Assembly (NCBI RefSeq): GCF_963921235.1
Contig: NC_086108.1
Span: forward strand, 682,001-746,000
DNA from: Mobula hypostoma
Taxonomy: Eukaryota
Reading direction: 5' to 3'
DNA length: 64,000 nucleotides
Made by a program: the position numbers and the translations under genes. The notes under the pieces were generated by a model that made no database searches, was not told the DNA's origin, and saw only the letters and a program-made list of their open reading frames with translations. The stretch's first letter is position 1. Every line of letters begins with the position of its first letter. Shown in pieces: positions 17,190 through 47,338 of the stretch.

Positions 17190-17580
17190 ATTGCTTTCTA
17201 TAACTTTTGGTAATCTCTTTTTCCATTCTCCATTCTGGTTCGCCTCTTACCCCTCTCACCTGCCTATCTCCCTCTGGTGCCCCTCTTCTCTTCTGCCATG
17301 ATTCGCTCTCCCCTCCTATCAGATTCCTCCTTCAGCCTTACCTTTTCCACCTATCCCCCTCCCAGCTTCTTATTTCACCCTCTCTCCCCCACCATCCCAC
17401 TTTCCCCCTTACTGGATTTCACCTTTCATCGCCCCTTGCTTCATATCCTCATTCTGGTTTCTTTCCCCTTCCTCTCCAGTCCTGATGAAGGTTCTTGGCC
17501 GGAAATGTCACTTGTCTCTTCCCCTCCAGAGACGCTGCCTGACCTGCTAAGTTTCTCCAGCATCTGCACAATCTCTGGTG
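17190..17580 (+). mobile_element. Penelope-like 3' terminus (pyrimidine-rich UTR plus hammerhead-bearing end)
   Basis: Colinear with the reverse complement of 43457-43880; contains CTGATGA...GAAATGTC and gacgctgcctgacctgct...ccagcat. Confidence 0.75.
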
Positions 17581-17739
17581 TTCATAAACTGAATGTGTGT
17601 TTTCATGATTGTTCAGTACTAGATCATCACCAGTAATGATGCCAGAATTATTTAATTAACTCCCCAGTTTCCATAGATCTTAATTAATGCAGGTTTACGG
17701 TGGATTGCTAGTTCAATGATGTCACTGCTATGCTGTCAT

Positions 17740-18532
17740 GGAACACAGAATACAGGAACAGGCTGTTTGGCCTGCAGTGATGTGCCAACCCAGCTAAAAA
17801 GCAAATGAAAAATACCCAAATGCTAATCCCTTCTACGTACACCATGTCCATATCCCTCCATTCCCCTTACATCCATGAGCCCATCCAAATGTCTCTTAAA
17901 TGCTTTCAATGTATTTGCCTCTACCAGCCTACCAGGCAGCACATTCCAAGGGTCCACCACTCTGAGTTAAAAAATTTACCCCTCACATCCCCCTTGAACC
18001 TACCCCCTCTCACCTTCAAAGCATTCCCTCTGGTATTAGACATTTCAACCCTGGGAAACAGATACTCCCTGCCCACTCCATACCTTTCATAATCTTGTAA
18101 ACCTCTATCATCTCCCTTCAGCCTCCAACGCTTCAGAGAAGACAACCCAATTTTATCCAGCCTCTCATGATTGCATGTGCCCTCTAAGCCAGGCAGCATC
18201 CTGGTGAACCTCTCCTGCACCCTCTCCAAAGCCTCAACATCCTCCCTGTAGTGGGGCAACCAGAACTCTTTGCAATATTCCAGATTTACTGTGGCCTAAC
18301 CAGAGTTCTATAACCTCCTGACTTTTGAACTCACTGCTTCCGCTAGTAAAAGCAAGTATTGCATAAGACGTCTTAACCACCTTATCAACCTGTGTAGCCA
18401 CTTTCAATGAGTTACAAACGTATCCCAAGATCTTTCTGCTCAGCAGCACTGTTAACGACCTTACCCTAAGCAGTGTATTGTCCCCTTGTATTTTTCCTAC
18501 TGAGGTGAAACACCTCACAATTATCTGGGTTA
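17740..18532 (-). mobile_element. CR1 LINE 3' fragment
   Basis: ORFs 17921-18259 (PHYREDVEALERVQERFTRMLPGL) and 18234-18518. Confidence 0.88.
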
Positions 18533-20194
18533 AAACCAGAATTACTGTGGATTACTACTGTTGAAATCAGTGGTATCGCTGTTTTGATGTCCTATTTTCC
18601 TTTTTTTAATTTGCTTTCTTCTATTCCATCTCTTTATAATCCACCCTTTGGCTCTGCATGTTCAGAGGCCGAAGGAGTGGTGTCTTTGTAACTGCAGCTG
18701 CTTTACAAGCTTTGGCCCATCCCTTGCCCTTCAATGCAAAGCCATCTCCAATGTTGCATTGAGTGAGACAGAATGATTTGGGGAGGGCTGTTCTGCTTAC
18801 AGGTCCTGGCGGAATGAAATGGGCCTCTGATGGAAAGGGCCTGGGAAGGAATAGGCTGAAAGAGGTGATGAGTTTTAATACCAGCAAGTGAGGGTTTCAG
18901 AAAGGAGACATGCTTTAGGAGAAATAAATATCCTAAATAAAAACTTTTAGGAACCTGTTTTGGTGAGGGGCTGGGCTTGGTGGGGGGGGGGAGGTTAGTG
19001 CTTCTGCCGGCACGGGTGGGGGTGGAAGGAGAGTTTGCTTGTGCAAAGGGAAGGGGGCTTCGGAGCTTTGAAGTTTCTGTCATTCTATGGGGTTTTGTTT
19101 TCTGGATCTGCGAAGGGTACGAATTGTATGAATTTCAGGTTTACTGTATAATTACTCTGATACTAAAATATACTTTGAAACTTTGATCCTTTACATAAGA
19201 TCATGACTGAACTGTATTAATCTTTATGCCACATACCCTGGCTTTGCATGGTGCCCAAATATTAATCAGTCTTGTTTTTGACTGATCACCTGCAGTCTTC
19301 TGGGTTAGAGAATCACACAGATTCACAGATCTCTCTGTAAAGAAATGTTTCCTCACCTCTGTTCTGATGGTCTACCCTTTATCCTGAGAATGTGGCTCTA
19401 TTTTTAGATTGAAAGAAGCTTGCAGTTAATTTTTAATGAGGTCACTGCTGATTCTTGTAAACTCCGAACGATATGCTTGTGTAACACTGCTAGGATAGAT
19501 ACCTGATCCGCAGACAGATATTGATGCGAGGCCTCCTCAGATATCTTGTGCCTTTGTCGGACTCACTCATCTGTGAGATAAAGCTACTTCAACCCAGCCG
19601 CCAATGAGGTCATGGAAACCAGACCTAATGCAAGCAGAAAGTTTCAGTCCATTAACCTCAGGTCATTATCACACACACTCAGAAAAAGAGCAGTTAGACT
19701 ATACTCACTCAACCTTCTTTCTGGATCCTCACAATAGGGTGTCATCATTGCCATTATGTGCCATATCATATGACGTAGGCAGTTTTGGTCTTTCCATGAT
19801 GGTTCTTGACAAATTTTGCTATGGAAGTGGTTAGCCATTGCCTTCTTCTGGGCAGTGCCTTTACAAGATGGGTGACCCCAGCCATTATCAATACTCTTTA
19901 GAGATTGTCTGCCTGGCGTCTATGGTCATATAACCAGGGCTTGTGATGCACCAGGTGCTCAAACAACCATCTACCACCTGCTCCCGTGGTTTCACGTGAC
20001 CCTGATTGGTGGGAGGAGGATAACCTTGCTCAAGGGTGACAAAGGGCACCTTGCATCTCCTTTGGTAGAGACACATCTCCACCCGACACCCAAGTAGGGT
20101 GTCAGGGTTGATAATAATAGAGATGATAAGAATTTCAACAGGTAAAGGAGGAAGTATCTGTAGGAAAATATTTTGCGAGAAGTTAAACATATTC

Positions 20195-21500
20195 CATAGA
20201 ACATTACTGCACAGTACAAGCCCCTTGGCCCACGATGCTGTGCTGACATTTTAATCTACTCTTAAGATCAATCTAACCCTTCTACGTTACTTTCCATTTT
20301 TCTATCATCTGTGTGCCTATCCAAGAGTTTCTGAAATGTTCCTAATGTATCTGTGACCACCACCAGCCTTGACAGGGTGTTACAAACATCCACTACTCTG
20401 TGTAAAAGAAAACTACCTCTGACACCTCCCCTCCCCCCACCATACTTTGTTCCAATCACCTTAAAATTGTGTCCCCTCATATTAGCCAATTACGCCCTGG
20501 GAAAAAATCTCTGGCTGTCCACTTGATCTGTGCCTCTTATCATCTTGTACGTATACCTCTATTAAGTCGCATCATATCCTCCTTCACTCCAAAGAGAAAG
20601 CCCAAGTTTTCCTCAGCGGATATGCTCTTTAGAGTGGGGAATCTGTGGAATTCATTGTTGCATGGTGGCTGTAAAGGCCAAGTTATTGGATATATTTAAG
20701 ACAGAAGTTGAGAGACAATAGGTGCAGGAGTAGGCCATTCGGCCCTTCGAGCTAGCATTGCCATTCGGCCCTTTGAGCCAGCATCGCCATTCGCTGTGAT
20801 CATGGCTGATCATCCAATATCAGTAGCCTGTTCCTGCCTTCTCCCAATATACCTTGACTCCGCTATCTTTAAGAGCTCTATCTAACTCTTTCTTGAAAGA
20901 ATCCAGAGAATTGGCCTCCATTGCCTTCTGAGGCAGAGCATTCCACAGATCACAACCCTCTGTGTGAAAAAGTTTTTCCTCAACTCCGTTCTAAATGGCC
21001 TACCCCTTATTCTGAAACTGTGGCCTCTGGTTCTGGACTCCCCCAACATCGGGAACATGTTTCCTGCCTCTAGTGTGTCCAGTCCCTTAATAATCATATA
21101 TGTTTCAATCAGATCCCCTCACATCCTTCTAAATGCCAGTGTATACAAGCCCAGTCGCTCCAATCTTTCAACATATGACAGTCCCTCCATCCCGGGAATT
21201 AACCCAGTGAACCTATGCTGCACTCCCTCAATAGCAAGAATGTCCTTCCTCAAATTTGGAGACCAAAACTGCACACAGTACTCCAGATGGGGTCTCACCA
21301 GGGCCCTGTACAACTGCAGAAGGACCTCTTTGCTCCTATACTCAACTCCCCTTGGTTCTTGATTAGTCGGTGTGAAGGGATGCATGGACAAGGCAGAAGA
21401 TTGAGGCTGAGAGGGAAAATGAATCAGTCATGGTTAAATAGTGAAGCAGGGTAAATGGGCCAAAAGGCCTTATTCTGCTCCTATATCTTATGGTCTTATG
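20195..21500. mobile_element. CR1 fragment cluster: 20195-20610(-), and a + strand 3' end (20625-20710 / 21353-21500) split by a - strand CR1 (20711-21352)
   Basis: ORFs 20268-20489, 20882-21097, 21119-21391 (LYRALVRPHLEYCVQFWSPNLRKD); CR1 tails at 20195, 20715 and 21500. Confidence 0.85.
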
Positions 21501-22279
21501 ATCTAATTCAGACAGCATCTCGGTAAATTGTCAGAGTTGGAGAATTTCGTTAATGAGCCAGGAGTAGTTGGCCTGGGGTCATTTTCTTTGGAAAAGAACA
21601 GGCTGTTGGAGGACTAAAGCAGGTGTATCGCAAACTTGCCTTTTCGTCAAGGCACTGAGTTCAAGAGGCAAAAAGTTATGTTATTAAATAATAAATGTAC
21701 AGTAGGTTGCAGTTTTAAATTTGGTTTGGCAACATTTGGAGTATTGCATTTAGTTCCGGTTTTTCCAGTATGGGAAAGATGTGGAGGCCTTGGGGAGGAT
21801 GCAGAAGAGGTTCAGCACGATGCTGCCTGGATTATTGAGCTAGTTCAGGCTTCTCGGCTCTTGAACCATAGCAAGTACACAGCCCAGTACTATTTAAATC
21901 TGACAGCTTCCTATAATTCTTTCAGGTGATGTAGTCTGGCTCTTCACCATGCTTTGCATGGAGAAGACACCTTCAACTCCCATGAGCATTTACTGTAAGG
22001 AGAGGTTGACAAATTTCAGTTATTTCTTTTGGAGTGCTGGAGGCTGATGCGAAACTTGATAGAGGTTTATCAAATGATGAGAGGCATAGATAGAATAGGT
22101 GGCCAATATCTTTTTCCCAGGGTCAAAATATCTAACACTAGAGGGCATGTCTTTAGGGTGAAAGGGGTTAAGTGCATGAGAGATAGGCAGAGCAGGTTTT
22201 TAATACAGAGAATTGTAGGTGTCTGGGATGAGCTGCCTGAGGTTGATGGTGAAAGCAGATGCAATAGATCCTCCCATTT

Positions 22280-22616
22280 AAGATGGCACTGGCAAATCGT
22301 ACGGCCAGATTTGGGAACAGCTTCTTTCCAACTGTGATAAGACTGCTGAAGGGATCCTGACCCGGATGTGGGCCGTACCCTCCATATATCCGGACCTGCC
22401 TCTCGGTTTTTTTGCACTACCTTACTTCCCATTTTTCTATTTTCTATTTATGATTTATTATTTAACTTTTTAATATTTGCTAATTTAAACTATTTTTAAT
22501 ATTTAATATTTGTAATCCAGGGAGTGTGAAGCGCAGAATCAGATATCGCTCTGATGATTGTAGGTTCTAGTACCAATTGTTTGGCGACAATAAAGTATAA
22601 AGCATAAAGTATAAAA
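22280..22616 (+). mobile_element. Rex1/Babar 3' end inserted in an older CR1 (21640-22279, continuing about 23435-23597)
   Basis: Encodes ALANRTARFGNSFFPTVIRLL; ends GACAATAAAGTATAAAGCATAAAGTATAAA. Confidence 0.7.
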
Positions 22617-22809
22617 TCTCAGTGACTTCTGGCTGGTGGCTAACGAAACAAAGAAAACAACTAAATATGTTGTTAATCATACTTTTTCTGACAAACAATC
22701 ATCATAAGCAATAGCCTGTAACTTCTGTTTAGACTTGGGGGTAATTTGATGTGACAGGACCAAGGCGAGGTGAGTCAGTAGGCCCATTGCCGAAAGCAAG
22801 GAAGACCCG

Positions 22810-23075
22810 ATGTTTGGACGACGACTTAAGTGCCAAGCTGAATTGGAAAGGTCAGGTACAGGTCGAATTGAGGTGGCGGAGTCCAGGCATCAGAGCCTAT
22901 CAAAGCGACTGAACCCAATGTTTGGGTGACAATTTAAGCACCAAACTGAATCGGAAAGGCCAGGTACAGGCCAAACTGAGGCAGCAGGGTCCAGGCACCA
23001 GAGCCTGTCAAAGCGACTGAACCCAATGTTTGGATGACGATTTGAGCACCAGGCCAGATTGAAAAGGTCAGGGTG
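22810..23075 (+). repeat. Tandem repeat, about 2.4 copies of a 108-bp unit, inside a non-coding Rex1-tailed element (about 22620-23422)
   Basis: ATGTTTGG recurs at 22810, 22918, 23026; shared block CCAGGCAYCAGAGCCTRTCAAAGCGACTGAACCCAATG. Confidence 0.85.
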
Positions 23076-24404
23076 AAGGGACCGAGGCGAGGGTCAGGCC
23101 AGTTCAGCTCGCTGCTGGGCTCTGTGCTGAACTAAGGGTGTGTGGACAAGCTCCCTTTGTAGACTTCAGTTCAGAATGCTCCTTGCTTGTGCTTGTTGTT
23201 TGCATGATTTGTTTCTTTTCTCTGCACATTGACTTTTCTTCAGTCTTTTCTTCATGGGTTCTTTTGAGTTTCGAAGCTGGCATAAGCACCGGCCTGATGG
23301 GCCACAAGGCTTGTGACAGACTTTAAAAAATTTAATCTTCTGAGTTTTGTTGTTTCATGGCTGCCTGTCAGGATATGAATCTCAAGGTCATGTAGTGTAT
23401 GCATATTGTGATAATAAACACTTCAGTCAAAGTTCAAAGTGTAAGTGGCTGTTACATAGGCACATGACTATACAGCGAATGGAGGGACTTGTGTAGCAGA
23501 ATGAGCTTGTTTAGTTAGGTATTAAATTATGACTTTAATTAGTTTGGCACATCATGGGCTGAAGCAGCTGCTCCTGTACTGTGTTGTTCTACGTTTAATT
23601 AAGGTGTGCAAAACTAAGCGATCATAACAGACAGTATAGGTATCTCTTTCCCATAGATGCTGCCTGGCCTGATGAGTTCCTCCAGTATTTTGTGTGTGTT
23701 ATACCTATAGATAGGGCTTATAATAGGGCTCATTCTAGCAGAGAGGATGGCAATGAGCAGTAGGTTTCAATGTAGGAGCATTAGATGGGAGTTGAAGGTG
23801 TTTTCTCCATTCAGAGGATGGAGCCAGACTACACCACCTGAAAGAATTATAGGAGCTGTCAGATTTAAATAGTACAGGGTTGAGCACTTGGTGTCTTTTA
23901 AACTGCTGAGAAGCCTGAACTGCCTCAATGGGCTGAATGGCCTTCTTTAAAGAAATAGTGTTGCATCCTTGAATATTATTCTTTATGATGTGAGTTGCAG
24001 TGAAGCCAGCACCAAAACCAAGTTTAAACGGGTTAATATTTCTGCTGTAAAAATGCCATTAAATTTCTACTCAATCAATAGAAAGGAGTAATTTTTCTTT
24101 TTCCAAAGGATGCTCTGGGAAAGTATTTTGAGTGAAGTTGAAGTTTAAAGTGAATTCTCTGCTTGAATGGAAGTTTGAACTGTCTATTTGATTGTGTTTC
24201 AGAACTTTTGTAGTCTAGAAATAAAGATGAGACTTTTCTGTGTTCTGGGTCCTTAAATAACTAATTATAGAATAACTTCCCTGATCAGCACTTCGCTGTA
24301 TGTGACACACATAAAATGCTGGAGGAACTCAGCAAGTCAGGCAGTGTCTGGAGGGGAATAAACGGTCAACGTTGTGGGCCAGTAATTTTTATTCAACAAC
24401 ATAA

Positions 24405-24737
24405 GTATTGGAGATTCTGTAGATGCTGAAAATCCAGAGTATAATACAGAAAATGCTGGAGAACTCAACAGGTCAGGCAGCATCTATGGAGAGGAATAAA
24501 GAGTCGATGTTTCTGGTTAAGACCTTTCTTCAGGACTGGAAAGGAAGGTGGGAAGAGCCCAGGAGGGAAGGGAAGGAGTGAGAGCTGGCAGGTAATAGGA
24601 GGGAAGGTGGGTGTGTAGTGGAAGGCAGGATGAAGTGAGAAGCTGTGAGGTGATGGTGGAAAAGGAAAGCTCTTTATTCCTCTCCAAGAATGCTGCCTGA
24701 CCTGCTGAGTTCCTCCTGTTTTTTTGTGTGTGTTGCT
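24405..24737. mobile_element. Penelope-derived fold-back element (minus terminus with hammerhead, then inverted partial terminus); related pieces at 11392-11470, 23640-23700, 24305-24380
   Basis: aaatgctggagaactcaacaggtcaggcagcat (about 24451-24483) is inverted as atgctgcctgacctgctgagttcctcc (about 24690-24717). Confidence 0.75.
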
Positions 24738-25275
24738 TTTTTAAAAATGTAACCTTCTAACAATTATTGCGGTTAAGAATTCTTCTTCTTCATGTGCCTT
24801 GCGCATTACATGTTTGGGCGATCGTGGCTCTCCACATCAAACGATCCCTCGTAGCCTCAATGATATCTTGCACACTTAGATCTGTTAATTCTTTCACAGT
24901 GTCCACGTTTTCTTCTTTGCCTTCCTCTTCCGCGTTTCCCAGGCATACGGCCTTGTAAGGCATTCTATTTCTCCCTTTCTGATGACATGGCCCAGGAATT
25001 TAAGTTTCCTCTCATTTAATGTTCTCATTAAAGATCTTTTTGTATGGGCACATTGGAATACCGACTCATTAGTTACCCTATCTCTATATGATATTTTCAG
25101 CATTCTTCTAAGAAACCACACTTCTGTTGCTTCTAAGTTTCTTTGGAGTTCTGGTGTTATAGTCCATGTTTCGGAAGCATACAGCAAGATTGACCAGATG
25201 TAACATTTTAGTAGCCTAAGCCTTGTTGTTATAGAAATGTGTCTGTTGGTAAAAATGAGTTTCATTTTTTTGGAA

Positions 25276-25990
25276 CAACACACACAAAGTGCTGGTGGAA
25301 TGCAGCAGGCCAGGCAGCATCTATAGGAAGAAGTTGACATTTCGGGTCGAGCCCCTTCGTCAGGACTAATGGAAAAAAGAGATAGTAAGAGATTTGAGAG
25401 GAGGAGGGGGAGACGTGAAATGATAGGAGAAGACAGGAGGGGGAGGGTTGAAGCTAAGAGCTGGGAAGTTGATTGGCAAAAGGGATACAAGGCTGGAGAA
25501 GGGGGAGTATCATAGGACAGAAGCCCTTGGAAGAAAGGAAGGGGGAGGGGAGCACCAGAGGAAGATGGAGAACAGGCAAGGAGTATTGTGAGAGGGAAAG
25601 AGGGAAAAAAAAACTTAAAAATTAGGGATGTGGTAAGAAGGGGAGGAGGGGCATTAATGGAAGTTAGAGAAATCAGTGTTCATGCCAACAGGTTGGAGGC
25701 TACCCAGACAGAACATAAGGTGGTGTTCCTCCAATCTGAGTGTGGTTTCATCTTGACCGTAGTGGAGGCCGTGGATTGACATATCGGAATAGGAATGAGA
25801 TATGGAATTAAAATGTGTGGCCACTGGGAGATCCTGCTTCCTCTGGCGGACAGAGTGTAGGTGTTTAGCAAAGCGGTCTCCCAATCAGCCTTGGGCCTCA
25901 CCAATATATAGATGGCCACACTGGGAGCACCGGATACAGTATATCACACCAGCAGTCTCACAGGTGAAGTGTCTCCTCACCTGGAAGGAT
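25276..25990 (-). mobile_element. Penelope-like element 3' part (GIY-YIG endonuclease, UTR, hammerhead terminus)
   Basis: HFTCETAGVIYCIRCSQCGHLYIGE...RFAKHL...VATHFN...RLEEHHLMFCLGSLQPVGMN; TSD TTTTTTGGAA at 25266-25275 and 25992-26001. Confidence 0.88.
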
Positions 25991-26650
25991 ATTTTTTGGA
26001 AGTTGGTTTTGACAATGGCAATTTTTCTTTTTATTTCTACTTCTAGCATCTCGTGATATAAAGCTACTAAGGTAATTAAAGCAAACACGAGGAATTCTGC
26101 AGATGCTGGAAATTCAAACAACTTTGATGTGTATTGAAAGTAATTAAACCTGGTCTTTTGTTCAGTCTCTTGGGTACCAATGTACAATTGGCAGTTGGGA
26201 GTACCCTGCTGTTTTGATATTACCAGACATTTGGTTTTTTTTACAGTTGATGGTTCGACCAAAATCTGCACTTGTTTGTACTACTTTGTCTTGGAGGATT
26301 TGTAGGTCTTCTGCAGCACTTGCTATTTGGGTGGTATTGTCTGCATATCTTATATTGTTGATGTTAGCACCTCCAATTTTTATCCCATCTAGGTCTTCTA
26401 TTTCTCTGAGAATTATTTCACTATAGATATTAAATAATTCTGGTGAGGCAACGCATCCCTGTCTAACTCTTCTTTGAATCTTAGTCCGACTGCTTATATT
26501 ATCAGCAATTTTTACCACCGCCGTTTGATTCCAATATAAATTTTGAAGCGGTTGTTGGTCCCTTCTGTCAATGTTTAGTGAGAATTTGAAATAATTTTTC
26601 GTGTTGCATTTTGTCGAATGCTTTAGTGAAATCAATAAAACATTAAAAGA

Positions 26651-27252
26651 TGCAAACACGAGGAAATCTGCAGATGCTGGAAATTCAAACAACACACACA
26701 AAAAATGCTGGTGAACGCAGCAGACCAGGCAGCATCTATAGGAAGAGGTACAGTCGATGTTTCGGACCGAGACCCTTTGTCAGGACTAACTGAAAGGAGA
26801 GATAGTAAGAGATTTGAGAGGGGGAGGGGGAGATCCGAAATGATAGGAGAAGACAGGAGGGGGAGGGATTGAGCTAAGAGCTGGAAAGTTGATTGGCAAA
26901 AGGGATACAAGGCTGGAGAAGGGAGAAGGTCATGGGACGGGAGGCCTGGGGAGAAAGGAAGGGGGGGGAAGCCCAGAGGATGGGCAAGGAGTTATAGTGA
27001 GAGGAACAGAGGGAGAAAAAAGAGAGAAAAAAGGGAAAAGAAAATAATAATAATAAATAAATAAGGGATAGGGTACGAAGGGGAGGTGGGGCATTAACGG
27101 AAGTTAGAGAAGTCAGTGTTCATGCCATCAGGCTGGAGGCTACCCAGACGGAGTATAAGATGTTGTTCCTCCAACTCGAGTGTGGCTTCATCTTGACGGT
27201 AGAGGAGGTCGTGGATAGACATACCAGAATGGGAATGGGATGTGGAATTAAA
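26651..27252 (-). mobile_element. Penelope-like element 3' part, same family
   Basis: Colinear with 43457-44040; includes end of the GIY-YIG ORF and hammerhead motif 26752-26787. Confidence 0.85.
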
Positions 27253-28149
27253 CATAAAATGACATCATTTTGATATTCAATTGCCCTTTCTGAAAGCATT
27301 CATAGTATGAAAATTGTGTTCCTAGTTCCTCTATCCTCAATAAACCCATATTGCAGTTTGGAAGTGTCTAGTCTTAACTTGTTTTTAATTCGACTCAGAA
27401 CAATTCTCAACAAAACTTATGTGACTCATAAGACAGATTGTTCTATAATTTTGGCAGTCAATAGTTCCAGGAATTTTTGGCAGAGTTATAAATACTGATT
27501 TCAAGAGATCGTTAGGCAATATACCAGACTCATATATGCCATTAAACAGTTCAAAAAGAATATCTATGCCCAGATCTTCATTTCCACCGAAATTTCATCA
27601 GGCCCAGTGGCTTTACCATGTTTAGTGCTTTTCATTGTTTTAGTTATTTCTTCTTTGGTAGTAGGTGGGCCAGAATTAGGGTGTTTAATATCTGGGAGTT
27701 TCCCTCTATTATCTTTAAAAAGCTGCTCTATATACTGAATCCACCTCTCACATACTTCATCTGGATCTGTTAGTATGGATCTGTCTGCTGATCTTATGCA
27801 TCCTATAGAGGAGGTTTTCTTAATTCCAGTAATTTCTTTAATTTTCTTGTGCATTTCTTTGCTATATAATCGCTATTGGCATTTCCTGATATTTAGTGAG
27901 GACCAACCACCCCAGACACCCTGCGGTTAAGAATAACAGATCAGAAACATCTTTTTTTAATCATTTGGTTTGCATGTAATGAAGCACAAGTACAATTTAC
28001 TCACAATTCCTCTTGGAACCTCTTCTAATAGCTTTTTGATTAAAATCTCAACGTCTTGCAAACTTAACTCAAGTATACTGAATTCATCACTGAATTGTTC
28101 CCATAACCTTGGACTCACTTTCAAGGACTCTTCATCTCATGTTCTGAAT

Positions 28150-31290: not shown

Positions 31291-34200
31291 ACATAAACAT
31301 GAGTTTCTGCAGATGCTGGAAATCTTGAGCAACACACATACATGGAATCTATGTATGTATCTTGGATACATACATGGAATTATGATGTAGTGGCCATTAC
31401 AGAGACTTGGCTGGCACCAGGGCAGGAATGGGTTCTCAATATTCCTGGATTTCAGTGCTTTAAAAGGGATAGAGAGGGCGGGAAAAGGGGAGGAGGGGTG
31501 GCATTACTGGTCAGGGATACTATTACAGCTACAGAAAGGGTGGGTAATGTAGCAGGATCCTCTTTTGAGTCAATATGGGTGGAAGTCAGGAACAGGAAGG
31601 GAGCAGTTACTCTACTGGGGGTATTCTGTAGGCTCCCTGGTAGCAGCAGAGATGCAGAGGAGCAGATTGGGAGGCAGATTTTGGAAAGGTGCAAAAATAA
31701 CAGGGTTGTTACCATGGGTGACTTTAACTTCCCTAATATTGATTGGCACCTGATTAGATCCAAGGGTTTAGATGGGGCAGAGTTTGTTAAGTGTGTCCAG
31801 GATGGATTCCTGTCACAGTATGTGGACAGGCCGACCAGGGGGAATGCCATACTAGATCTGGTACTAGATAATGAACCGGGTCAGGTCACAGATCTCTCAG
31901 TGGGTGAGCATCTGGGGGACAGTGACCACCGCTCCCTGGCCTTTATAATTATCATGGAAAAGGATAGAATCTAAGAGGACAGGAAAATTTTTAATTGGGG
32001 AAAGGCAAATTATGGGGCTATAAGGCTAAAGCTTGTGGGTGTGAATTGGGATGATGTTTTTGCAGGGAAATGTACTATGGACATGTGGTCGATGTTTAGA
32101 GATCTCTTGCGGGATGTAAGGGATAAATTTGTCCCGGTGAGGAGGATAAAGAATGGTAGGGTGAAGGAACCATGGGTGACAAGTGAGGTGGAAAATCTAG
32201 TCAGGTGGAAGAAGAGGTTTAGGAAGCAAGGATCAGATGGGTCTATTGAGGAATATGGGGAAGCAAGAAAGGAGCTTTAGAAGGGGCTGAGAAGAGCAAG
32301 AAGGGGGCATGAGAAGGCCTTGGCGAGTAGGGTAAAGGAAAACCCCAAGGCATTCTTCAATTATGTGAAGAACAAAAGGATGACAGGAGTGAAGGTAGGA
32401 CCGATTAGAGATATAGGAGGGAAGATGTGCCTGGAGGCTGTGGAAGTGAGCGAGGTCCTCAATGAATACTTCTCTTCGGTATTCACCACTGAGAGGGAAC
32501 TTGATAATGGTGAGGACAATATGAGTGAGGTTGATGTTCTGGAGCATGTTGATATTAAGGGAGAGGAGGTGTTGGAGTTGTTAAAATACATTAGGACAGA
32601 TAAGTCCCAGGGGCCTGACGGAATATTCCCCAGGCTGCTCCATGAGGTGGGAGAAGAGATTGCTGAGCCTCTGGCTAGGATCTTTATGTCCTCGTTGTTC
32701 ACGGGAATGGTACCGGAGGATTGGAGGGAGGCGAATGTTGTTCCCTTGTTCAAAAAAGGTAGTAGGGATAGTCTGGGTAATTATAGACCAGTGAGCCTTA
32801 CGTCTGTGGTGGGAAAGCTGTTGGAAAAGATTCTTACAGAGATTGGATCTGTAGGCATTTAGAGAATCATGGTCTGATCAGGGACAGTCAGCATGGCTTT
32901 GTGAAGGGCAGATCGTGTCTAACAAGCCTGATAGAGTTCTTTGAGGAGGTGACCAGGCATATAGTTGAGGGTAGTGCAGTGGATGTGATCTATATGGATT
33001 TTAGTAAGGCATTTGACAGGGTTCCACACGGTAGGCTTATTCAGAAAGTTAGAAGGCATGGGATCCAGGGAAGTTTGGCCAGGTGGATTCAGAATTGGCT
33101 TGCCTGCAGAAGGCAGAGGGTGGTGGTGGAGGGAGTATATTCAGATTGGAGGATTTTGACTAGTGGTGTCCCACAAGGATCTGTTCTGGGACCTCTACTT
33201 TTCGTGATTTTTATTAACGACCTGGATGTGGGGGTAGAAAGGTGGGTTGGCAAGTTTGCAGACGACACAAAGGTTGGTGGTGTTGTAGATAGTGTAGAAG
33301 ATTGTCAAGGATTGCAGAGAGACATTGATAGGATGCAGAAGTGGGCTGAGAAGTGGCAGATGGAGTTCAACCTGGAGAAGTGTGAGGTGGTACACTTTGG
33401 AAGGACAAACTCCAAGGCAGAGCACAAAGTAAATGGCAGGATACTTGGTAGTGTGGAGGAGCAGAGGGATCTCGGGGTACATGTCCACAGATCCCTGAAA
33501 GTTGCCTCACAGGTGGGTAAGGTAGTTAAGAAAGCCGATGGGTGTTAGCTTTCATAAGTCGAGGGGTAGAGTTTAAGAGTCGCGATGTAATGATGCAGCT
33601 CTATAAAACTCTGGTTAGGTCACACTTGGAGTACTGTGTCCAGTTCTGGTCACCTCACTATAGGAAGGATGTGGAAGCATTTGAAAGGGTACAGAGGAGA
33701 TTCACCAGGATGCTACCTGGTTTAGAGAGTATGCATTATGATCAGAGATTAAGGGAGCTAGGGTTTTACTCTTTGGAGAGAAGGAGGATGAGATGAGACA
33801 TGATAGAGGTGTACAAGATAATAAGAGGAATAGATAGAGTGGATAGCTAGTGCCTCTTCCTGAGGGCACCACTGCTCAATACAAGAGGACATGGCTTTAA
33901 GGTAAGGGGTGTTAAGTTCAAGGGGGATATTAGAGGAAGGTTTTTTACTCAGAGAGTGGTTGGTTTGTGGAATGTACTGCCCGAGTCAGTGGTGGAGGCA
34001 GATACACTAGTGAAGTTTAAGAGACTACTCGACGGGTATATGGAGGAATCTAAGGTGGGGGCTTATATGGCAGGCAGGGTTTGAGGGTCGGCACAACATT
34101 GTGGGCCGAAGGGCCTGTACTGTGCTGAACTATTCTATGTTCTATGTTCAAAATGCTGGAGGAGCTCAGCAGGTCAGGCATAATAAACAATTGACGTTTC

Positions 34201-34318
34201 AGGCCAAGACCCTTCATCAGGACTCGATCTCAGCCTGAAGCATTAACTGTTCATTCCCCTTCATAGATGCTGCCTGATCTGATGAGTTCCTGCATTCTCC
34301 ATCAAATTGTGTGTATTG
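31291..34318. mobile_element. Penelope-derived fold-back element (31291-31341 plus 34150-34318) split by the CR1
   Basis: tctgcagatgctggaaatcttgagcaacacacata | aaaatgctggaggagctcagcagg rejoin across the CR1; hammerhead at 34189-34224, then an inverted arm. Confidence 0.75.
31362..34149 (+). mobile_element. CR1 LINE covering most of ORF2 (AP endonuclease plus RT), with stops and frameshifts
   Basis: ORF 31342-31974 (VAITETW, MGDFNFPNIDW, ILDLVL, GDSDH), 32320-32862, 32901-33548 (KFADD), 33542-33796; (TTCTATG)n tail. Confidence 0.95.
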
Positions 34319-36221: not shown

Positions 36222-36744
36222 AACATGAATTGTAGAGTCTTTGAAAGTGTGTCTGTAGGTTATGGAAGCAGTTCAGAGTTGTGAGTGAAGTTATCCATGC
36301 CAGTTCTGCAGCCTGATAATTTGGCCACGTTTACCTTGGGTCATGTGTCAGCCTTTATTTCTTTAGTCAGTTTTACTGATCTTCTTTCCACTAGCTTTAA
36401 TTTATTGATGGAGGCCACTTAATTGTGGCTTGCTGATCCAGTGATGGTCATGAGTTCAAAAGCACTTAAACACACAGTGAGTGACAGATGTAGGGAACTT
36501 CCTTCCAGCAACTATTCCAAGGTCAGTTATTTCAAGAAATTCAAGAAATTTCAAGAATGTTTAACATAATTTCCAGTACACAAGTGTAAAGGAGATCAAA
36601 ATGATTTTTACTCCATATCTGATTCAGCTCAAAAAAACCCCACTATGATAAAGAGGGCAATAATAATTTTTAAAAAATAGTTTGTTTGCATTAATTATAT
36701 GTTCTTAAAGTGACGCTAGATACACGAGCATCTGTACGCAAGGT

Positions 36745-39700: not shown

Positions 39701-40835
39701 TCGAGCCTTCAGACAATTTATATGTGTGTGCCATTCCCTCTCTTATCTCTTGTCAACAGAGCACACACTTGCTTATTGTGTGACTGGCCACAGTGTTATT
39801 TATACATGATGCTGAAATGACACAGCAGCTATAAATATGGGTTTGCCTCAGTTCCACTGAAGTACTGGGCTTGTCAGGCCTGCACTCAAGGTGATTGTGT
39901 GTTTTGCTGCCAGTTTAAAAAGTTTAAAATGCAAATTCTAAGGGCTGTGTCCAACTTCATAATATTTTCTTCATCTGCTCCTTCTCTTCCTTACTGTGCG
40001 ATGACCCTACAGGTTGCCAGCCTTGCCCTAGGACTTGTTTTCCCATGATCCATAGAGCTTGGCAGTCTCGTTAACCCCTGATAAGAGTATCAATGCCTGT
40101 AACCTCTCATCACAATGGAAAATGAATAGGTGGTGGAGTGGTGCGACTTTCAGAGCTGCTGCCTCCCTGCGCCAATAACCTTGTGGTTCGAACCCGAGCT
40201 CAGGTGCTGTCTGCGTGGTGTCTCTCCCGGCAAACACTTAGGTTTCCTCTGGTGATCTGGCTTCCTTCCACACCCAGTGATATGCAGTTTAATAGGTCAA
40301 TTCCCCTCGGGTGGGTGGGCAGTATGGGGAATGAGGGTGAACTGGTACTGATTCAATTTGAATAGCTTCCTGTGTTGTAAAGATGTGGAAGCTTTAGAGA
40401 GGGTACAGAGGAGGTTTACCAGGATGTTGCCTGGATTAAAGAGCGTGTCTTGTTAGCAGAGATTGAGCGAGCTAGGGCTTTTCCCTTAGGAGTGAAGCAG
40501 GATGTAAGGTGACTTGATAGATGTATATAAGAGGCAGAGACAGTGTGGAAAGCCAGAGACTTTATCCCAGGGTGGAAATGGTTAATACAAGTGTCAGAAT
40601 TTAAGTTGATTTGGAGAAAAGTATGCTGAGGATATCAAAGGTGGTTTTTTGACACAGAGAGTGATCGATGTGTGGAACGGACTGCTAGGGCTGGTAGTAG
40701 AGACAGGTACATTAGGGACATTTAAGAGACTCTTAAATAGGCACGTGGATGATAGAAAAATAGAAATAAATGATTGAAAATGGAGAGTATTGTGGGCCAA
40801 AGGGCCTGTACTGTGTTGTAGTGTTCTATGTTCTT
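36745..40835. mobile_element. Scattered CR1 3' fragments: 36745-37190(-), 38890-39250(-), 40365-40835(+)
   Basis: ORF 36949-37152 (LSYRERLNRLGLYSLE), 38868-39431 part (FFSRRVVNLWNS), CR1 tails. Confidence 0.8.
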
Positions 40836-42157
40836 TGTAATATGGAGTATGTTATCATCAGAGGGAGCTGGGGTTGAGAAAGGAGCTGTGATGTGCTGAG
40901 GCTCAGGCTAATCTTAGGGAAATGAGCAAGGCAAGGGATTAGTTTTGATTAATTTTGCAAATATGGTTTGTGTACTGGTGACCTTAATGACCTGTGATTC
41001 CATTGCTCCGTGCATTGTGTGGCTCAGTATTGAACCACACAGATGAGCAGTTCCATAGTAATTGAAAAACAAAGAAAAATTGCTGGAAATCCGAAATGAA
41101 ACCCAAAAAATCCTGGAGTTATTAAACTGGTCAGGCAGCAACTCTGGGGAGAGGGAGTGTGGGGAGGGGAAGGGGAAGAGAGAGAGGTATATGTGTGCAT
41201 TACTCTCTCTCGATCTCTCTATATCTGTAAAAATAATATGTGTGTGTATATCTATTATGTATAAAATAGTTAATAGGTAGTGCAAAATTAGAGATTAAAA
41301 ACAGTAGTGAGGTAGTATTCTGGGGTTCAATGTCCAGTCTGAAATCTGGATTCAGCTGTTCCTGAATCATTGAGTGTGTACCTTCAGGCTCCTGTACCTC
41401 CTCCCTGATAGGAGCAGTGAGAAGAGGGCATGACCTGGGTCCTTAATTATGGACACCAGCTTTTTGAGGCCTCATTCCTTGAAGAGATGCTGGGGAGACT
41501 AGTGCCTGTGATGGAGCTGACTGTGTTTACAACATCTGCAGCTATTTAGCCCCACCATATCAGATGGTGATACAGCCGGTTAGAATGCTCTCCATGGTAC
41601 GTCTGTAGAAATTTGCGAGTCTCTTCAATACCCTAATGTATATCCCTGGCAGAGAAGACTCGATGAGCTGAATGGAGTAATTGGGCTCCTATGTCTAATG
41701 GTATCTTTCCTCTACCACCACCCCTGACAGTGTGTTCCATGTACAAACCACTCTCTGTGTATAGAGCTTGCCTCTGACTTTCCTACAATCACCCAAACAC
41801 CCGGGTTGCTGGAGCTGTAAGGGTGTTATGCTAACTGCTATGCTACCAATGGTAACAAATCTGAGAGCTGCAACACATCAAACTTTTTGTTGCTGAGAGC
41901 ATAGTTTGTTAGGTTGCTTATCCTGTGGAATCTGTGCCTCTTCCTCTCCATTTTCCTCTGAATTCGTGAGCTGATGTGTTGTAGGGAGCATGACAGTATC
42001 GTGTGACATTCTTCTGCTCATGTGAGGATACTGATGATGCCAGTCAGTCCGATTTCTGTGCTCTGACATGAGTGTTTAGACTCAGTTTCCATCAGTTAAA
42101 AGCTCCTTTGTTCAAAGATTCAAAGTACATTTATTATCAAATAATGTATAAATTATA

Positions 42158-42616
42158 CAGGTGTCCCCTGCTTTACGCCACTTCGCTTTTACGAAAGACC
42201 TACATTAGTACCTGTTTTCGCTAAGTGAAAGAGGATTTTCGCTTTTACGAAAAAAGACATCCGCTTTAAATGTGTGTTTACCCCGAGAAAGACTACCATG
42301 ACCATGAAGCCTTGAGCGGTTGTGTGTGTGTGCGCATGCACGTACGTGCCAATTTTTTTCTACAAATCAGTTTTGGCTAAATCTTCTGGATTCTGTTAAG
42401 TGAAACTATAGTGTACATACATTATTTCTATTTTATATAAGCTGTGTATTTATCATATTATTCCTGCTTTTACTATAAGTTAGTGTTATTTTAAGTTTTA
42501 TGTGCTAAAAATTTTTCCCATATAAATTAATGGTAATTGCTTCTTCACTTTACGCCATTTCGGCTTACGAACGGTTTCATAGGAACACTCTACCTTCGGA
42601 TAACGGGGGAAACCTG
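42158..42616. mobile_element. Tigger/pogo MITE, same family as 14874-15880, inserted in a Rex1-tailed repeat
   Basis: TA-CAGGTGTCCCC ... GGGGGAAACCTG-TA; right end is the reverse complement of 14874-14980. Confidence 0.88.
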
Positions 42617-43456
42617 TACAACCTTGAGATTAGTTTGCTTACAAGCAGCCACAAAACAAGAAATCTGAAAGAATCCAATTAAAAAAATAAAGACCAACTC
42701 CTAAAGTTTACAGAGGAAGAGGGAAAAAAACACAAACCATGCAAACAATAGCATGAGCATTCCAAACCAAATTGAGTCTTTCGATCTAAATGCCCATAGC
42801 AGCCTGGAGTAGGCCCAAAGCCTTAGTATTCAGTTCATCATTTTAGCAGGGCAAATCGCCGCAAAGTTCACAGACACAAAGCACAGCAGTCGGGGGCCGT
42901 CTCACAGCCTTAGTGTTGCAGAGAGAGGAGCCCCAGTCTACCTGGGCTGGTGTTTAAATTCTCAGTAGGGGTTTTATCATTGAATCCTCCCCACTGTGGG
43001 GGAGGGATTAAACCTACTCCGAATGATCTTTTAATGTAACATCTCTCCAGTCCTCAAGTGTATTTCCCAACCTTCTAGCTGCTAGCCTTTAGAACATCCA
43101 TGGCCTCATATTCCAACAGGGTTTGATCAAAGTTCAGAGCCGCAGTCAGTGGCTAACACAGTCTAAGGATGTGTTCTGGGCAGCTCGCAAGTGTCGCCAC
43201 ACTTCCAGCACCAACATCGCATGCCCGCAACTCACTGCCCCGAACCCGTATGCCTTTGGACTGAGAGGGGAAACCGTAAGGTCACAAGGAGTACGTACAA
43301 ACTCCTTAAAGGCAGCGGCAGAAATTAAACTTTGGTCTTGGGTACTGTAAAGCTTTGTGCTAATCACTACTCTACCTTTTCCTCCCTCATCCCATAGATG
43401 AGTGGGTTGGTAGGCAAATTGAGTGCTGTAAATTGCCCCTGAGTGGTAGAACCTGA

Positions 43457-44323
43457 ACAACAGGAATTCTGCAGATGCTGGAAATTCAAGCAACATACAT
43501 CAAAGTTGCTGGTGAACGCAGCAGGCCAAGCAGCATCTGTAGGAAGAGGTGCAGTCGATGTTTCAGGCCGAGACCCTTCGTCAGGACTAACTGAAGGAAG
43601 AGTGAGTAAGGGATTTGAAAGTTGGAGGGGGAGGGGGAGATCCAAAATGATAGGAGAAGACAGGAGGGGGAGGGATAGAGCCGAGAGCTGGACAGGTGAT
43701 TGGCAAAAGGGATACAAGAGGATCATGGGACAGGAGGTCCGGGAAGAAAGACGGGGGGGGGGGACCCAGAGGATGGGCAAGAGGTATATTCAGAGGGACA
43801 GAGGGAGAAAAAGGAGAGTGAGAGAAAGAATGTGTGCATAAAAATGAGTAACAGATGGGGTACGAGGGGGAGGTGGGGCCTTAGCGGAAGTTAGAGAAGT
43901 CGATGTTCATGCCATCAGGTTGGAGGCTACCCAGACGGAATATAAGGTGTTGTTCCTCCAACCTGAGTGTGGCTTCATCTTTACAGTAGAGGAGGCCGTG
44001 GATAGACATGTCAGAATGGGAATGGGATGTGGAATTAAAATGTATGGCCACTGGGAGATCCTGCTTTCTCTGGCGGACAGAGCGTAGATGTTCAGCAAAG
44101 CGGTCTCCCAGTCTGCGTCGGGTCTCGCCAATATATAAAAGGCCACATCGGGAGCACCGGACGCAGTATATCACTCCAGTCGACTCACAGGTGAAGTGAT
44201 GCCTCACCTGGAAGGACTGTTTGGGGCCCTGAATGGTGGTAAGGGAGGAAGTGTAAGGGCATGTGTAGCACTTGTTCCGCTTACACGGATAAGTGCCAGG
44301 AGGGAGATCAGTGGGGAGGGATG
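43457..44323 (-). mobile_element. Penelope-like element 3' part, best-preserved copy
   Basis: ORF 43881-44207: HFTCESTGVIYCVRCSRCGLLYIGETRRRLGDRFAEHL...PDGMN (GIY-YIG); hammerhead 43553-43588; perfect 12-bp TSD GGTAGAACCTGA at 43445-43456 and 44324-44335. Confidence 0.92.
43553..43588 (-). ncRNA. Minimal type I hammerhead ribozyme motif (representative of 8 copies)
   Basis: AGUC CUGACGA AGG GUCUCGG CCU GAAA CAUC GACU: stem I AGUC/GACU, core CUGANGA and GAAA, stem II AGG/CCU, NUH triplet. Confidence 0.75.
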
Positions 44324-45627
44324 GGTAGAACCTGATTCAGGTTTGGTGGAAGGGGTTAAAGTCATAAGTGTTATACAGCATTGTTTGTGTCAACAACCAA
44401 CACAATCTGAGATGTGCTAGGGGCAGTCCACAAGTACCAACACAGCATGTCCACAAAATACCAACCCTAACCCGTACGTCTTTGAAGTGTGGGAGGAAAC
44501 TGGAGCACCTGGAAGAAATGGGGAGAAGGTACAAACTCTTTACTGACTGGGGCAGAAGTTGAACCCTGATCAGAGATCACTGGCACTGTAAAGCATGTTA
44601 ACTGCTGTGCTGCCATACTATACATCAACAGTGCAGGGGTGTGTAGGTATGGTAGGGCTGACCTCTGGGAGCTCAGTTCTATGCTTCAACTGGGGTATAC
44701 AACAAGATCATCCAGTGTGGATTCGATTCTCCCGTTATAAAGGAAACTGCATGGTGAGCTCTGAATATACGGACCTGAACTAAGGAAATCGCTGTTCCAA
44801 CTAAAAGGAGTATAGGGAGCCCCAGACTGTCATCATTTTTAAAAAATGTAAATGAGAAATGTATTTCTGTAGACTTTCACAACCCCAGGACCTGAGAAAG
44901 CACCTCAGAGTCAATGAAGAACGAAGAGTCGCCAGAGGAAACGCAGCAGTCACTCTGCACAGTTGATGTCCCATGAACAACAGTGGAGCAAACTTTTTTA
45001 GAGATTGAAGGATAAAATATGACTAGTGCATTGGAGAGAATTCCTTTGCACCACTTCCCGGCTAAGGGACTCCAAAGAAGGAATGAAGCAAGCAGCACAG
45101 ACAAAATGTTGGAGGAACTCAGCAGGCCAGGCACCATCTGTGGAAAAGAGTAAGCAATCGACATTTCAGGCTCAGACCCTTCAGCTGGACTGTTCTTTTT
45201 AAAAAAAAGATGAGAAGTCAGAGCAAAAAGATGAAGGGAGAAGAGGAAGATTTACAAAATGTTAAGAGTTATTAAGTGTGAGGTGGTTCATTTTGGTAGG
45301 TCAAATATGATGGCAGAATAATAAAACTCTTGGCATTGTGGAGGATCAGAGGGATCTTGGGGTCTGAGTCCATAGGACACTCAAAGCTACTGTGCAGGTT
45401 GACTCTGTGGTTAAGAAGGTATACAGTACATTGGCCTTCATCAACCGTGGGATTGCGTTTAAGAGCCAAGAGGTAATGTTACAGCTTTATAGGACCCTGG
45501 TCAGACCCCACTTGGAGTACTGTGCTCAGTTCTGGTCACCTCACTACAGGAAGGATGTGGAAACCATAGAAAGGGTGTAGAGGAAATTTACAAGGATGTT
45601 GCCTGGATTGGGAAGCATGCCTTATGA

Positions 45628-47338
45628 CAGCGGTCCCTAACCACCGGGCTGCAGAGCATGTGCTACCAGGTCGCGAGGAAACAATATGAGTCAGCTGCGC
45701 CTTTCCTCATTTCCTGTCATGCAGTGTTTAACTTGAACATAGGGTTGCCAACTGTCCCGTATCAGCCAGGACATCCCGTATATTGGGCTAAATTGATTTG
45801 TCACATACTTGTCCCGTATTTCCCCCGTTAAGGCAGAGCGTTCCTATGAAACCTTTTGTGCTGAAATGACGTGAAGTGAAGAAACAATTACCATTAATTT
45901 ATATGGGAAAATTCCCAGACCCAAAAAATAACCTACCAAATCATACCAAATAACACACAAAACCTAAAATAACACTAAGCAGGAATGATATAATAAATAC
46001 ACAGCCTATATAAAGTAGAAATAATGTATGTACAGTGTAGTTGGGAAGATTAAGTCAAAACCGATTTGTGGGGAAAAAAAATAGGAACGTACGTGCATGA
46101 GCACGTCATGCATGCGCACACATATGCCCGTGCAAGGCTTCATGGTCATAGAAACATAGAAACATAGAAAATAGGTGCAGGAGTAGGCTATTTGGCCCTT
46201 CGAGCCTGCACCGCCATTCAGTATGATCATGGCTGATCATCCAACTCAGAATCCTGTACCAGCCTTCCCTCCATACCCTCTGATCCCTTTAGCCACAAGG
46301 GCCTTATCTAACTCCCTCCTAGATATAGCCAATGAACTGGCCTCAACTGTTTCCCGTGGCAAAGAATTCCACAGATTCACCACTCTCTGTGTGAAGAAGT
46401 TTTTCCTCATCTCGGTCCTAAAAGGCTTCCCCTTTATCCTCAAACTGTGACCCCTCGTTCTGGACTTCCCCAACATCGGGAACAATCTTTCTGCATCTAG
46501 CCTGTCCAATCCCTTTAGAATTTTATACGTTTCAATCAGGTCCCCCTCAATCTTCTAAATTCCAGAGAGTACAAGCCTAGTTGATCCAGTCTTTCATCAT
46601 ATGAAAGTCCTGCCATCCCAGGAATCAATCTGGTGAACCTTCTTTGTACCCCCTCTATGGCAAGAATATCTTTCCTCAGATTAGGGGACCAAAACTGCAG
46701 ACAATACTCTAGGTGTGGTCTCACCAAGGCCTTGTACAACTGCAGTAGAACCTCCCTGCTCCTGTACTCGAATCCTCTTGCTATGAATGCCAGCATACCA
46801 TTCGCCTTTTTCACTGCCTGCTGTACCTGCATGCCCACTTTCAATGACTGGTGTATAATGAGACCCAGGTCTCATTGCACCTCCCCTTTTCCTAATCTGC
46901 CACCATTCAGATAATAATCTGTTTTCCTGTTCTTGCCACCAAAGTGGATAACTTCACATTTATCCACATTAAATTGCACCTGCTATGAATATCCACATTA
47001 AGTTGCATGGTAGTCATGGTAGTCTTTCTCGGGGTAAACACAAGCGTCTTGTCAACACACACACAAAAATGCTGGTGAACGCAGCAGGGCAGGCAGCATC
47101 TATAGGAAGAGGTACAGTCGACGTTTTGGGCTGAGACCCTTCGTCAGGACTTGACTGCTACTTTTGTCCCTTATTTGGGAGTGAGAAATTTGTAAAAGAA
47201 ATTGTAAAAGGCCTGTTGAGGTGAGTTTAACCCTAGATGAACACCACCCCCGCCCCCCCCCCCCCGGGTCGGCCGGTCTGCAAGAATATTGTCAATATTA
47301 AACTGGTCCGTGGTGCAAAATAAGGTTGGGAACCCCTG
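45628..47338. mobile_element. Composite non-autonomous hAT element
   Basis: TIRs CAGCGGTCCCTAACC / GGTTGGGAACCCCTG; perfect 8-bp TSD CCTTATGA at 45620-45627 and 47339-47346; contains Tigger-MITE sequence, a CR1 and a Penelope terminus. Confidence 0.88.
46147..46985 (-). mobile_element. CR1 3' fragment nested in the hAT element
   Basis: ORFs 46536-46844 and 46246-46509; (CATAGAAA)n tail 46147-46170. Confidence 0.9.

What the first reader, a model, noticed from the sequence alone, without database searches (positions are those of the whole stretch)
17478..47151. Eight copies of a 36-nt minimal hammerhead ribozyme that could fold only as a dimer
Seen (element strand): 17478-17513(+) AGTC CTGATGA AGGTTCTTGGCCG GAAA TGTC ACTT; 24502-24537(-) AGTC CTGAAGA AAGGTCTTAACCA GAAA CATC GACT; 25332-25367(-) AGTC CTGACGA AGGGGCTCGACCC GAAA TGTC AACT; 26752-26787(-) AGTC CTGACAA AGGGTCTCGGTCC GAAA CATC GACT; 34189-34224(-) AGTC CTGATGA AGGGTCTTGGCCT GAAA CGTC AATT; 43553-43588(-) AGTC CTGACGA AGGGTCTCGGCCT GAAA CATC GACT; 45156-45191(-) decayed core; 47116-47151(-) AGTC CTGACGA AGGGTCTCAGCCC AAAA CGTC GACT. 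The variable base is N7 (T/C/A), as expected for the hammerhead core CUGANGA. The consensus leaves no loop for stem III, only the palindrome ACGU before a GUC cleavage triplet. Known: Penelope-like elements carry minimal hammerheads with a palindromic stem III, proposed to work as dimers. Inference: this is such a system in a chondrichthyan genome, and it has amplified strongly.
Basis: partly seen in the sequence, partly recalled or inferred. Interest (0 to 1): 0.75.

Follow-up and report, generated by a model that had tools for sequence, protein, structure and literature searches.

The report
Decayed Penelope retrotransposon hammerheads
The eight motifs are mutated leftover copies of the tiny hammerhead RNA motif already known from the end repeats of Penelope-like jumping genes, here from a very abundant family in what is likely a shark or ray genome; the parent motif is predicted to cut only as a pair, and these eight copies likely do not cut, so this is a new member of a known kind.

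Summary
All eight sites are present verbatim, but none is intact: each has a core, helix III or stem I defect. The intact motif has 63,506 exact matches in this 3.48-Gb genome, control 0. It lies in the pseudo-LTRs of a Neptune-type Penelope-like element (PLE): units of hammerhead, 1043-codon RT/GIY-YIG frame, hammerhead repeat every ~3.5 kb, with tandems, 5' inversions and a ~35-nt tail. Across 20 distinct motifs from related elements, stem I covaries (48 of 60 pairs versus 17.8 permuted), so the hammerhead fold is real and selected in parent lineages. Dispersed copies decay neutrally. Helix III can form only between two copies, but that dimer is predicted less stable than a self-locked hairpin, and insertion ends do not fall at the cut site. 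Slow, probably protein-assisted cleavage is most likely. The class was described in 2014 (PMC4209133), including fish Neptune PLEs, and this scan reported it before in other shark or ray genomes. New member of a known kind; interest low.

The parts
17478..17513 (+). Hammerhead copy 1, older subfamily; core intact, helix III AUGU, stems I and II disrupted
17011..17169 (+). Degenerate fragment of the PLE RT coding region upstream of copy 1 (71% DNA identity to the full element in L069)
24502..24537 (-). Copy 2, older subfamily; helix III ACAU (not self-complementary), G10.1 changed; repeat extends to about 24414
25276..25989 (-). 5'-truncated PLE 3' end (78% to L069): decayed GIY-YIG tail, 3' UTR and copy 3 at 25332-25367 (innermost stem I pair lost, helix III AUGU)
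26648..27252 (-). 5'-truncated PLE 3' end (82% to L069) with copy 4 at 26752-26787 (G8A, helix III ACAU) and the long tail
34141..34318 (.). Copy 5 at 34189-34224 (-) (ACGU kept, innermost stem I pair lost) joined at its 5' side to an inverted partial copy at 34227-34318 (+): the 5'-inversion structure of PLEs
43456..44325 (-). Youngest element in the window: 870-nt 5'-truncated PLE 3' end, 97.4% to the full-length element in L069
43881..44336 (-). Open frame (151 codons) with CX4CxxC linker and GIY-YIG endonuclease; its stop lies 292 nt upstream of copy 6
   Evidence: PF01541, 24 bits, cut-off 22.6
43553..43588 (-). Copy 6; intact except G16.2 to A in helix III (ACAU)
45156..45191 (-). Copy 7, older subfamily; core decayed; repeat extends to about 45115
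47053..47151 (-). Short insertion beginning at stem I: copy 8 at 47116-47151 (G12A) plus short tail, 89% to L069

Best explanation
The eight motifs are mutated copies of the minimal type I hammerhead carried in the pseudo-LTR of a Neptune-type Penelope-like retrotransposon, scattered as passengers of 5'-truncated insertions and likely inactive, while the parent motif is predicted to cut only as a double hammerhead, likely slowly and with protein help. Shown: the parent unit is hammerhead, ~130 nt, ATG, ~1016-residue RT/Zn-linker/GIY-YIG frame, ~290 nt UTR, hammerhead, tail. Copies end about 65 or about 100 nt 3' of the cut site, so every insertion that starts there copies the motif first; this explains the copy number without any selection on the copies. 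Inferred: in a tandem transcript (or between two transcripts) two ACGU palindromes pair into one 4-bp helix III, stem I forms crosswise (5' strand of one copy with 3' strand of the other), and each copy cuts the other after GUC. The single motif likely rests in a hairpin in which GACG of the core pairs with CGUC at the cut site, so cleavage would be a late or chaperoned step (for example by the element's own protein) that processes or circularises precursor RNA but does not set the ends of the inserted DNA.
For: Architecture: 4 of 18 long-frame loci fetched carry a 1039-1043-codon frame with an exact motif on each side, about 3.5 kb apart; L067 has three motifs in tandem; L070, L073 and L074 have 5' inversions. 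RT YIDD, DKG, CX4CxxC linker and GIY-YIG with CxxC/H/H are seen in the alignment. Relatives: 18 sense-strand minimal hammerheads in 17 of 80 metagenome loci, 2 antisense, 0 in 20 shuffles. Covariation: stem I 48 of 60 Watson-Crick pairs against 17.8 +/- 3.6 permuted, four pair types at positions 1 to 3; stem II 45 of 60 against 29.7 +/- 3.0. Tail: 27 of 66 3' ends at +59 to +73 and 28 of 66 at +95 to +107. Neutral decay: core non-CpG mismatches 5 of 328, non-diagnostic flank 44 of 2559, P = 1.0; 10 of 88 flank sites carry subfamily-level changes, no core site does. Energetics: hammerhead dimer -11.7 to -12.9 kcal/mol against -23.4 for two monomer hairpins. Ends: 0 of 30 ORF-start copies begin within 19 nt of the cut and 22 of 30 read through it; 33 of 34 copies anchored on the upstream flank run on past the cut. 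Literature: low dimer activity (PMC4209133), protein-dependent cleavage that is dispensable for insertion in vitro (PMC11167929).
Against: No cleavage was measured. Nearest-neighbour energies ignore Mg2+ and core tertiary contacts, so the self-locked state is only a prediction. 12 of 22 related loci with a full 3' flank had no core motif within 1200 nt downstream. Pfam scores of the full frames are under the curated cut-offs (RVT_1 21.5-24.1 against 29.6 bits; GIY-YIG 19.7 against 22.6). The permutation test does not correct for relatedness, and about 4 of its 20 rows look like chance hits. Read-through of the cut site cannot tell an uncut RNA from a cut and religated circle. The neutrality test rests on 33 copies of the younger subfamilies.
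Confidence: 0.75

Rival explanations
1. Cleavage is an obligatory, efficient step: tandem precursors are cut at both hammerheads and ligated into a ~3.5-kb circle that is the real RT template, giving the partial tandems (the model proposed in PMC4209133).
For: Tandems and partial tandems of variable 5' length; read-through of the upstream site in 22 of 30 copies is what a religated circle would give; the fold is conserved across distant elements.
Against: Hammerhead mutants did not affect insertion in vitro, and no RNA-seq reads ended at the cut site, for the anole Poseidon element (PMC11167929); Naiad PLEs proliferate without canonical hammerheads (PMC8557442); the active dimer is predicted to be disfavoured.
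Confidence: 0.2
2. The motif no longer cuts in this lineage and survives as a structural or protein-binding hairpin next to the RT start sites, or as a hitch-hiker.
For: 48,264 of 63,506 exact matches have G10.1-U11.1 in place of the usual G-C; no end signature of cleavage; PMC8557442 raises the idea that hammerheads merely parasitise PLEs.
Against: No core site carries a subfamily-level change while 10 of 88 flank sites do; published members also have G-U at this pair; core, palindrome and stems are kept in distant relatives.
Confidence: 0.15
3. The dispersed copies act on the host, cutting host transcripts in cis or in trans through the large pool of compatible half-sites.
For: 21 of 33 sampled younger copies keep an intact core and ACGT; copies 3 and 5 keep the 5' strand of stem I and could serve as the enzyme half for an intact partner; 7 of 8 copies lie on one strand.
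Against: 0 of 8 window copies are intact; decay is neutral; strands are balanced genome-wide (31,654 against 31,852); no host Pfam domain in 80 non-repeat frames of the window.
Confidence: 0.06

Closest known systems
Minimal hammerheads (min-HHR) in pLTRs of metazoan PLEs, including Xena, Poseidon and Neptune of fishes (Cervera and De la Pena 2014, PMC4209133; read parts 1-3 of 4 and part 2 of 3 of supplement file 2)
   Same: Type I core CUGANGA, one extra base, stem II, GAAA, palindromic CG with no loop III, UH, short stem I; one copy per pLTR; mostly solitary truncated copies; dimer model. ACGUC is the commonest published form.
   Different: No cartilaginous fish in the alignment part I read or in a supplement search for shark, Callorhinchus or Leucoraja (file 1 was not searched). 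At least 63,506 exact copies against about 4,000 (coelacanth) and 9,000 (Xenopus). Stem II is short (3-4 bp), and G10.1-U11.1 dominates.
PAc, Poseidon element of Anolis carolinensis (Frangieh et al. 2024, PMC11167929; read parts 1-2 of 4)
   Same: Tandem pLTR organisation; two 3' end classes 30-40 nt apart downstream of the hammerhead (the tail, equal to the two RT start sites); uncut RNA as the template.
   Different: PAc is Poseidon clade and its ORF starts inside the hammerhead; here the likely ATG is about 130 nt downstream and the protein has the Zn-finger-like linker.
Neptune clade of EN+ PLEs (as defined in Craig et al. 2021, PMC8557442; passages read)
   Same: C-terminal GIY-YIG, CX2-5CxxC linker, DKG motif, 5' truncation, partial tandems, inverted 5' copies, tail.
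   Different: Clade placement by tree was not tested; Nematis shares the linker.
Small PLE hammerheads that cleave as dimers (Lunse, Weinberg and Breaker 2016; not held; seen only as a cited title and in review passages, PMC6765202 and PMC6466107)
   Different: Could not check whether shark or ray sequences were included.
Non-LTR retrozymes (bioRxiv 10.64898/2026.07.22.740005; read part 1, section 14 and passages)
   Same: Type I hammerheads derived from PLE pLTRs; found in the one chondrichthyan sampled.
   Different: Retrozymes are short tandem units; the window copies are dispersed ends of a coding element.

Membership tests
PLE minimal hammerhead (min-HHR) | Catalytic boxes CUGANGA, GAAA and NUH in type I order | tested here: met
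   63,506 exact genome matches; boxes intact in 5 of 8 window copies
PLE minimal hammerhead (min-HHR) | No helix III or loop 3; palindrome across 15.2-16.2 | tested here: met
   ACGU in the parent motif; relatives found without a palindrome filter mostly read ACGU or another palindrome
PLE minimal hammerhead (min-HHR) | Short stem I and stem II supported by covariation | tested here: met
   Stem I 48 of 60 against 17.8, stem II 45 of 60 against 29.7; relatedness not corrected
PLE minimal hammerhead (min-HHR) | Extra base after A9, and G10.1 paired with 11.1 (G-C in the consensus, G-U in some published members) | tested here: met
   Extra A; G-U in 48,264 of 63,506 copies; G-U members in the published alignment
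PLE minimal hammerhead (min-HHR) | Located in both flanking repeats of a PLE | tested here: met
   L066-L069
PLE minimal hammerhead (min-HHR) | Self-cleavage as a dimer | not testable with these tools
   Geometry requires a dimer; the predicted energy disfavours it
EN+ Penelope-like element | Single ORF with RT and C-terminal GIY-YIG | tested here: met
   1043-codon frames; RVT_1 E 3.4e-5 to 2.2e-4 and GIY-YIG E 1e-3, both under cut-off; window fragment over cut-off; motifs
EN+ Penelope-like element | Pseudo-LTRs from partial tandems, inverted 5' copies, 30-40 nt tail | tested here: met
Neptune clade | Zn-finger-like CX2-5CxxC linker between RT and EN | tested here: met
   CX4CxxC in the window frame and in L068/L069, shared by relatives; Nematis also has it
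Neptune clade | RT phylogeny with named Neptune references | not tested
   No named reference set was at hand
Non-LTR retrozyme | Short non-coding tandem units, each with a hammerhead | tested here: not met
   Window copies are separate truncated ends 78-97% like the coding element, at least 830 nt apart
Rfam hammerhead families | Covariance-model hit | tested here: not met
   No hammerhead hit at E up to 5 in the window; expected for decayed motifs lacking helix III

The most novel reading that the evidence does not exclude
This recently active vertebrate Neptune-type family keeps its hammerhead switched off by a built-in lock (core GACG paired to the CGUC cut site, plus a weakened G10.1-U11.1 pair) so that the RNA is reverse-transcribed before it is cut; the ribozyme works as a protein-released timer, not as the maker of the template's ends. 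With intact open frames and more than 60,000 near-identical copies, the family would be a ready system to test why PLEs keep hammerheads.
Probability: 0.25. Interest if true: 0.45.

Novelty: new member of a known kind. Interest (0 to 1): 0.17.

Why it matters
If correct, it extends a known class to a very high copy number in a cartilaginous fish: at least 63,506 intact motifs, and about 6% of an 800-kb sample matches the element (48,922 bases). It also supplies a genome-scale record that insertion ends ignore the cut site. That bears on the open question of what PLE hammerheads do, but the ribozyme class, its dimer mode and its place in fish PLEs are already published, and the eight copies themselves are debris.

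Tried and rejected
Rfam scan: no hammerhead or other meaningful hit. tRNA/SINE head: no tRNA gene found in the window. Within-genome compensatory family (stem I AGUU/AACU with GUU): 77 matches against 251 for the non-compensated form; the 25 inspected look like an older, heavily decayed family mixed with CpG-decayed young copies, so I did not use them as covariation evidence. Expression: no RNA holder listed on record; 4 of 22 runs were laid, all contigs, with no start or end clusters, which cannot show cleavage or level. Host gene: 80 non-repeat frames gave only a LINE endonuclease hit; short exons are not excluded. The 7-of-8 strand bias in the window (11 of 16 profile hits) was not pursued because the genome is balanced. 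In one search the dimer of L235 was built in a wrong register and dropped; in the other 10 of 11 the hammerhead dimer was less stable than two monomers (L196 nearly equal). A mild cluster of 5' ends at -20 to -53 (6 of 30 and 8 of 46) was not tested against a truncation model. Literature searches found no paper describing this motif in a shark or ray; Lunse 2016 was not available and may cover it, and bioRxiv supplements could not be seen.
Full report
Observation. All eight strings stand at the stated places. A profile from them finds 16 hits in the window, so the 36-mer is the middle of a longer repeat with a shared downstream flank. The intact pattern has 31,654 + 31,852 = 63,506 exact matches in the 3.48-Gb genome and 0 for the reversed control. 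In 80 evenly spaced 10-kb stretches a family-independent hammerhead descriptor gave 24 hits against 0 in the reversed and three shuffled controls. The profile gave 147 hits, 99 of which cover the motif; extrapolated, that is several hundred thousand copies. Rfam has no matching model.

State of the eight copies. None is intact. Copies 4, 7 and 8 have broken catalytic boxes; copies 2, 4 and 6 have ACAU, which cannot self-pair; copies 1, 3 and 5 lack the stem I pair next to the cut. Many changes are CpG transitions.

What carries it. Copy 6 lies 292 nt downstream of a frame with a GIY-YIG domain. Searching the genome with that frame returned the 150 best matches at 97-100% identity, some in frames of about 1040 codons. 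Of 18 long-frame loci fetched, four (L066-L069) have a 1039-1043-codon frame with an exact motif on each side about 3.5 kb apart, L067 has three motifs in a near-perfect tandem, and L070, L073 and L074 have inverted 5' copies. [quoted passage not shown] By the definitions in PMC8557442 (passages) this is an EN+ Penelope-like element of Neptune type; I did not test the clade by a tree. The nearest named protein is from Chiloscyllium punctatum at 71%, which supports a cartilaginous fish. The window elements are 5'-truncated ends, 78-97% like L069 for the longer ones.

Is the fold real? In 80 metagenome loci that encode relatives, 18 minimal hammerheads lie on the sense strand of 17 loci and 2 on inverted copies, against 0 in 20 shuffles. 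Taking 20 distinct motifs chosen only for the core and a self-complementary 4- or 6-mer, stem I formed 48 of 60 Watson-Crick pairs against 17.8 +/- 3.6 on permutation (maximum 34 in 20,000), with all four pair types, and stem II 45 of 60 against 29.7 +/- 3.0. About four rows look like chance hits, and relatedness is not corrected. Against this, 12 of 22 loci with a full 3' flank had no core within 1200 nt downstream. Within the genome, 33 copies chosen on flanks alone show core mismatches (5 of 328) equal to non-diagnostic flank (44 of 2559; P = 1.0) but below all flank (165 of 2889; P = 0.0004), because 10 of 88 flank sites carry subfamily changes and no core site does. Selection acts on parent elements, not on dispersed copies.

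How it likely works. A15.1 and U16.1 enclose only two bases, so helix III cannot close in one motif (sequence; minimum loop size is established knowledge). Two copies can pair ACGU with ACGU and form stem I crosswise, each cutting the other after GUC (inference from the double-hammerhead model in PMC4209133). ViennaRNA puts this dimer at -11.7 to -12.9 kcal/mol, against -11.7 for one monomer hairpin in which core GACG pairs with CGUC, and -31.7 for the best duplex; the dimer is also weaker than two monomers in 10 of 10 correctly built cases. The model ignores Mg2+ and tertiary contacts. The youngest form also has G10.1-U11.1 (48,264 of 63,506). Insertions end at +59 to +73 (27 of 66) or +95 to +107 (28 of 66) from the cut (these copies were chosen for holding the motif), the tail that PMC11167929 equates with the two RT start sites. 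33 of 34 copies anchored upstream only run through the cut; of 30 copies (the first 30 of 407 matches) that hold the ORF start, none begins within 19 nt of the cut and 22 read through it; 1 of 46 short copies begins at it, at an inversion junction. So a cut linear end does not bound the template. The template is uncut or religated. This fits the anole element, whose hammerhead cuts only with protein and is dispensable for insertion in vitro.

Comparison. PMC4209133 described this motif type, its place in pLTRs, its presence in fish Neptune, Poseidon and Xena elements, and low dimer activity. A 2016 paper titled to the same effect was not available. Five searches found no description in sharks or rays, but a 2026 preprint reports PLE-derived retrozymes in one chondrichthyan. 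Earlier notes of this scan reach the same reading in other genomes; I saw them after the tests above were designed.

Verdict. Observation confirmed, interpretation supported with the correction that the eight copies are decayed passengers. New member of a known kind. Interest 0.17.

Noticed in passing
G000:C2:157816715-157817365 and C2:122542754-122543046 (listing): The pLTR/ORF-start anchor recurs at 310-nt spacing (three times) and at 262-nt spacing: short tandems of the pLTR region that could be retrozyme-like arrays able to form the dimer in cis.
   Followed up: no
G000:C1, first 100 matches (e.g. 109233/109304, 2546805/2546841): Four back-to-back motif pairs joined within 60 nt of their 5' sides; inversion junctions seem to cluster at or just upstream of stem I, as at window 34224-34227.
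   Followed up: partly
L164-L188: An older, heavily decayed family with a 14-nt stem-loop II, GUU triplet and AGUU/AACU-like stem I appears to exist in the genome.
   Followed up: partly
L230, L237, L242: Three related metagenome loci carry a core motif about 390 nt downstream of the ORF with a helix III region that does not fit the palindromic descriptor.
   Followed up: no
window 51223-54967 (-): Frameshifted L1/Tx1-like LINE with endonuclease and RT remnants; the family name is recalled, not from a call.
   Followed up: no
window 205-1411, 11913-13157, 31303-33548, 49297-50297, 62372-63503: Many CR1-like LINE fragments (RVT_1 confirmed for 32787-33548); 68% of the window matches repeats in the 800-kb sample. 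The CR1 label is recalled.
   Followed up: no
window 13466-13852 (-): DDE_3 transposase fragment (Tc1/mariner-like).
   Followed up: no
window 24894-26779 (-): An RTE-like RT fragment (RVT_1; family label recalled) is interleaved with PLE copies 3 and 4, suggesting nested insertions.
   Followed up: no
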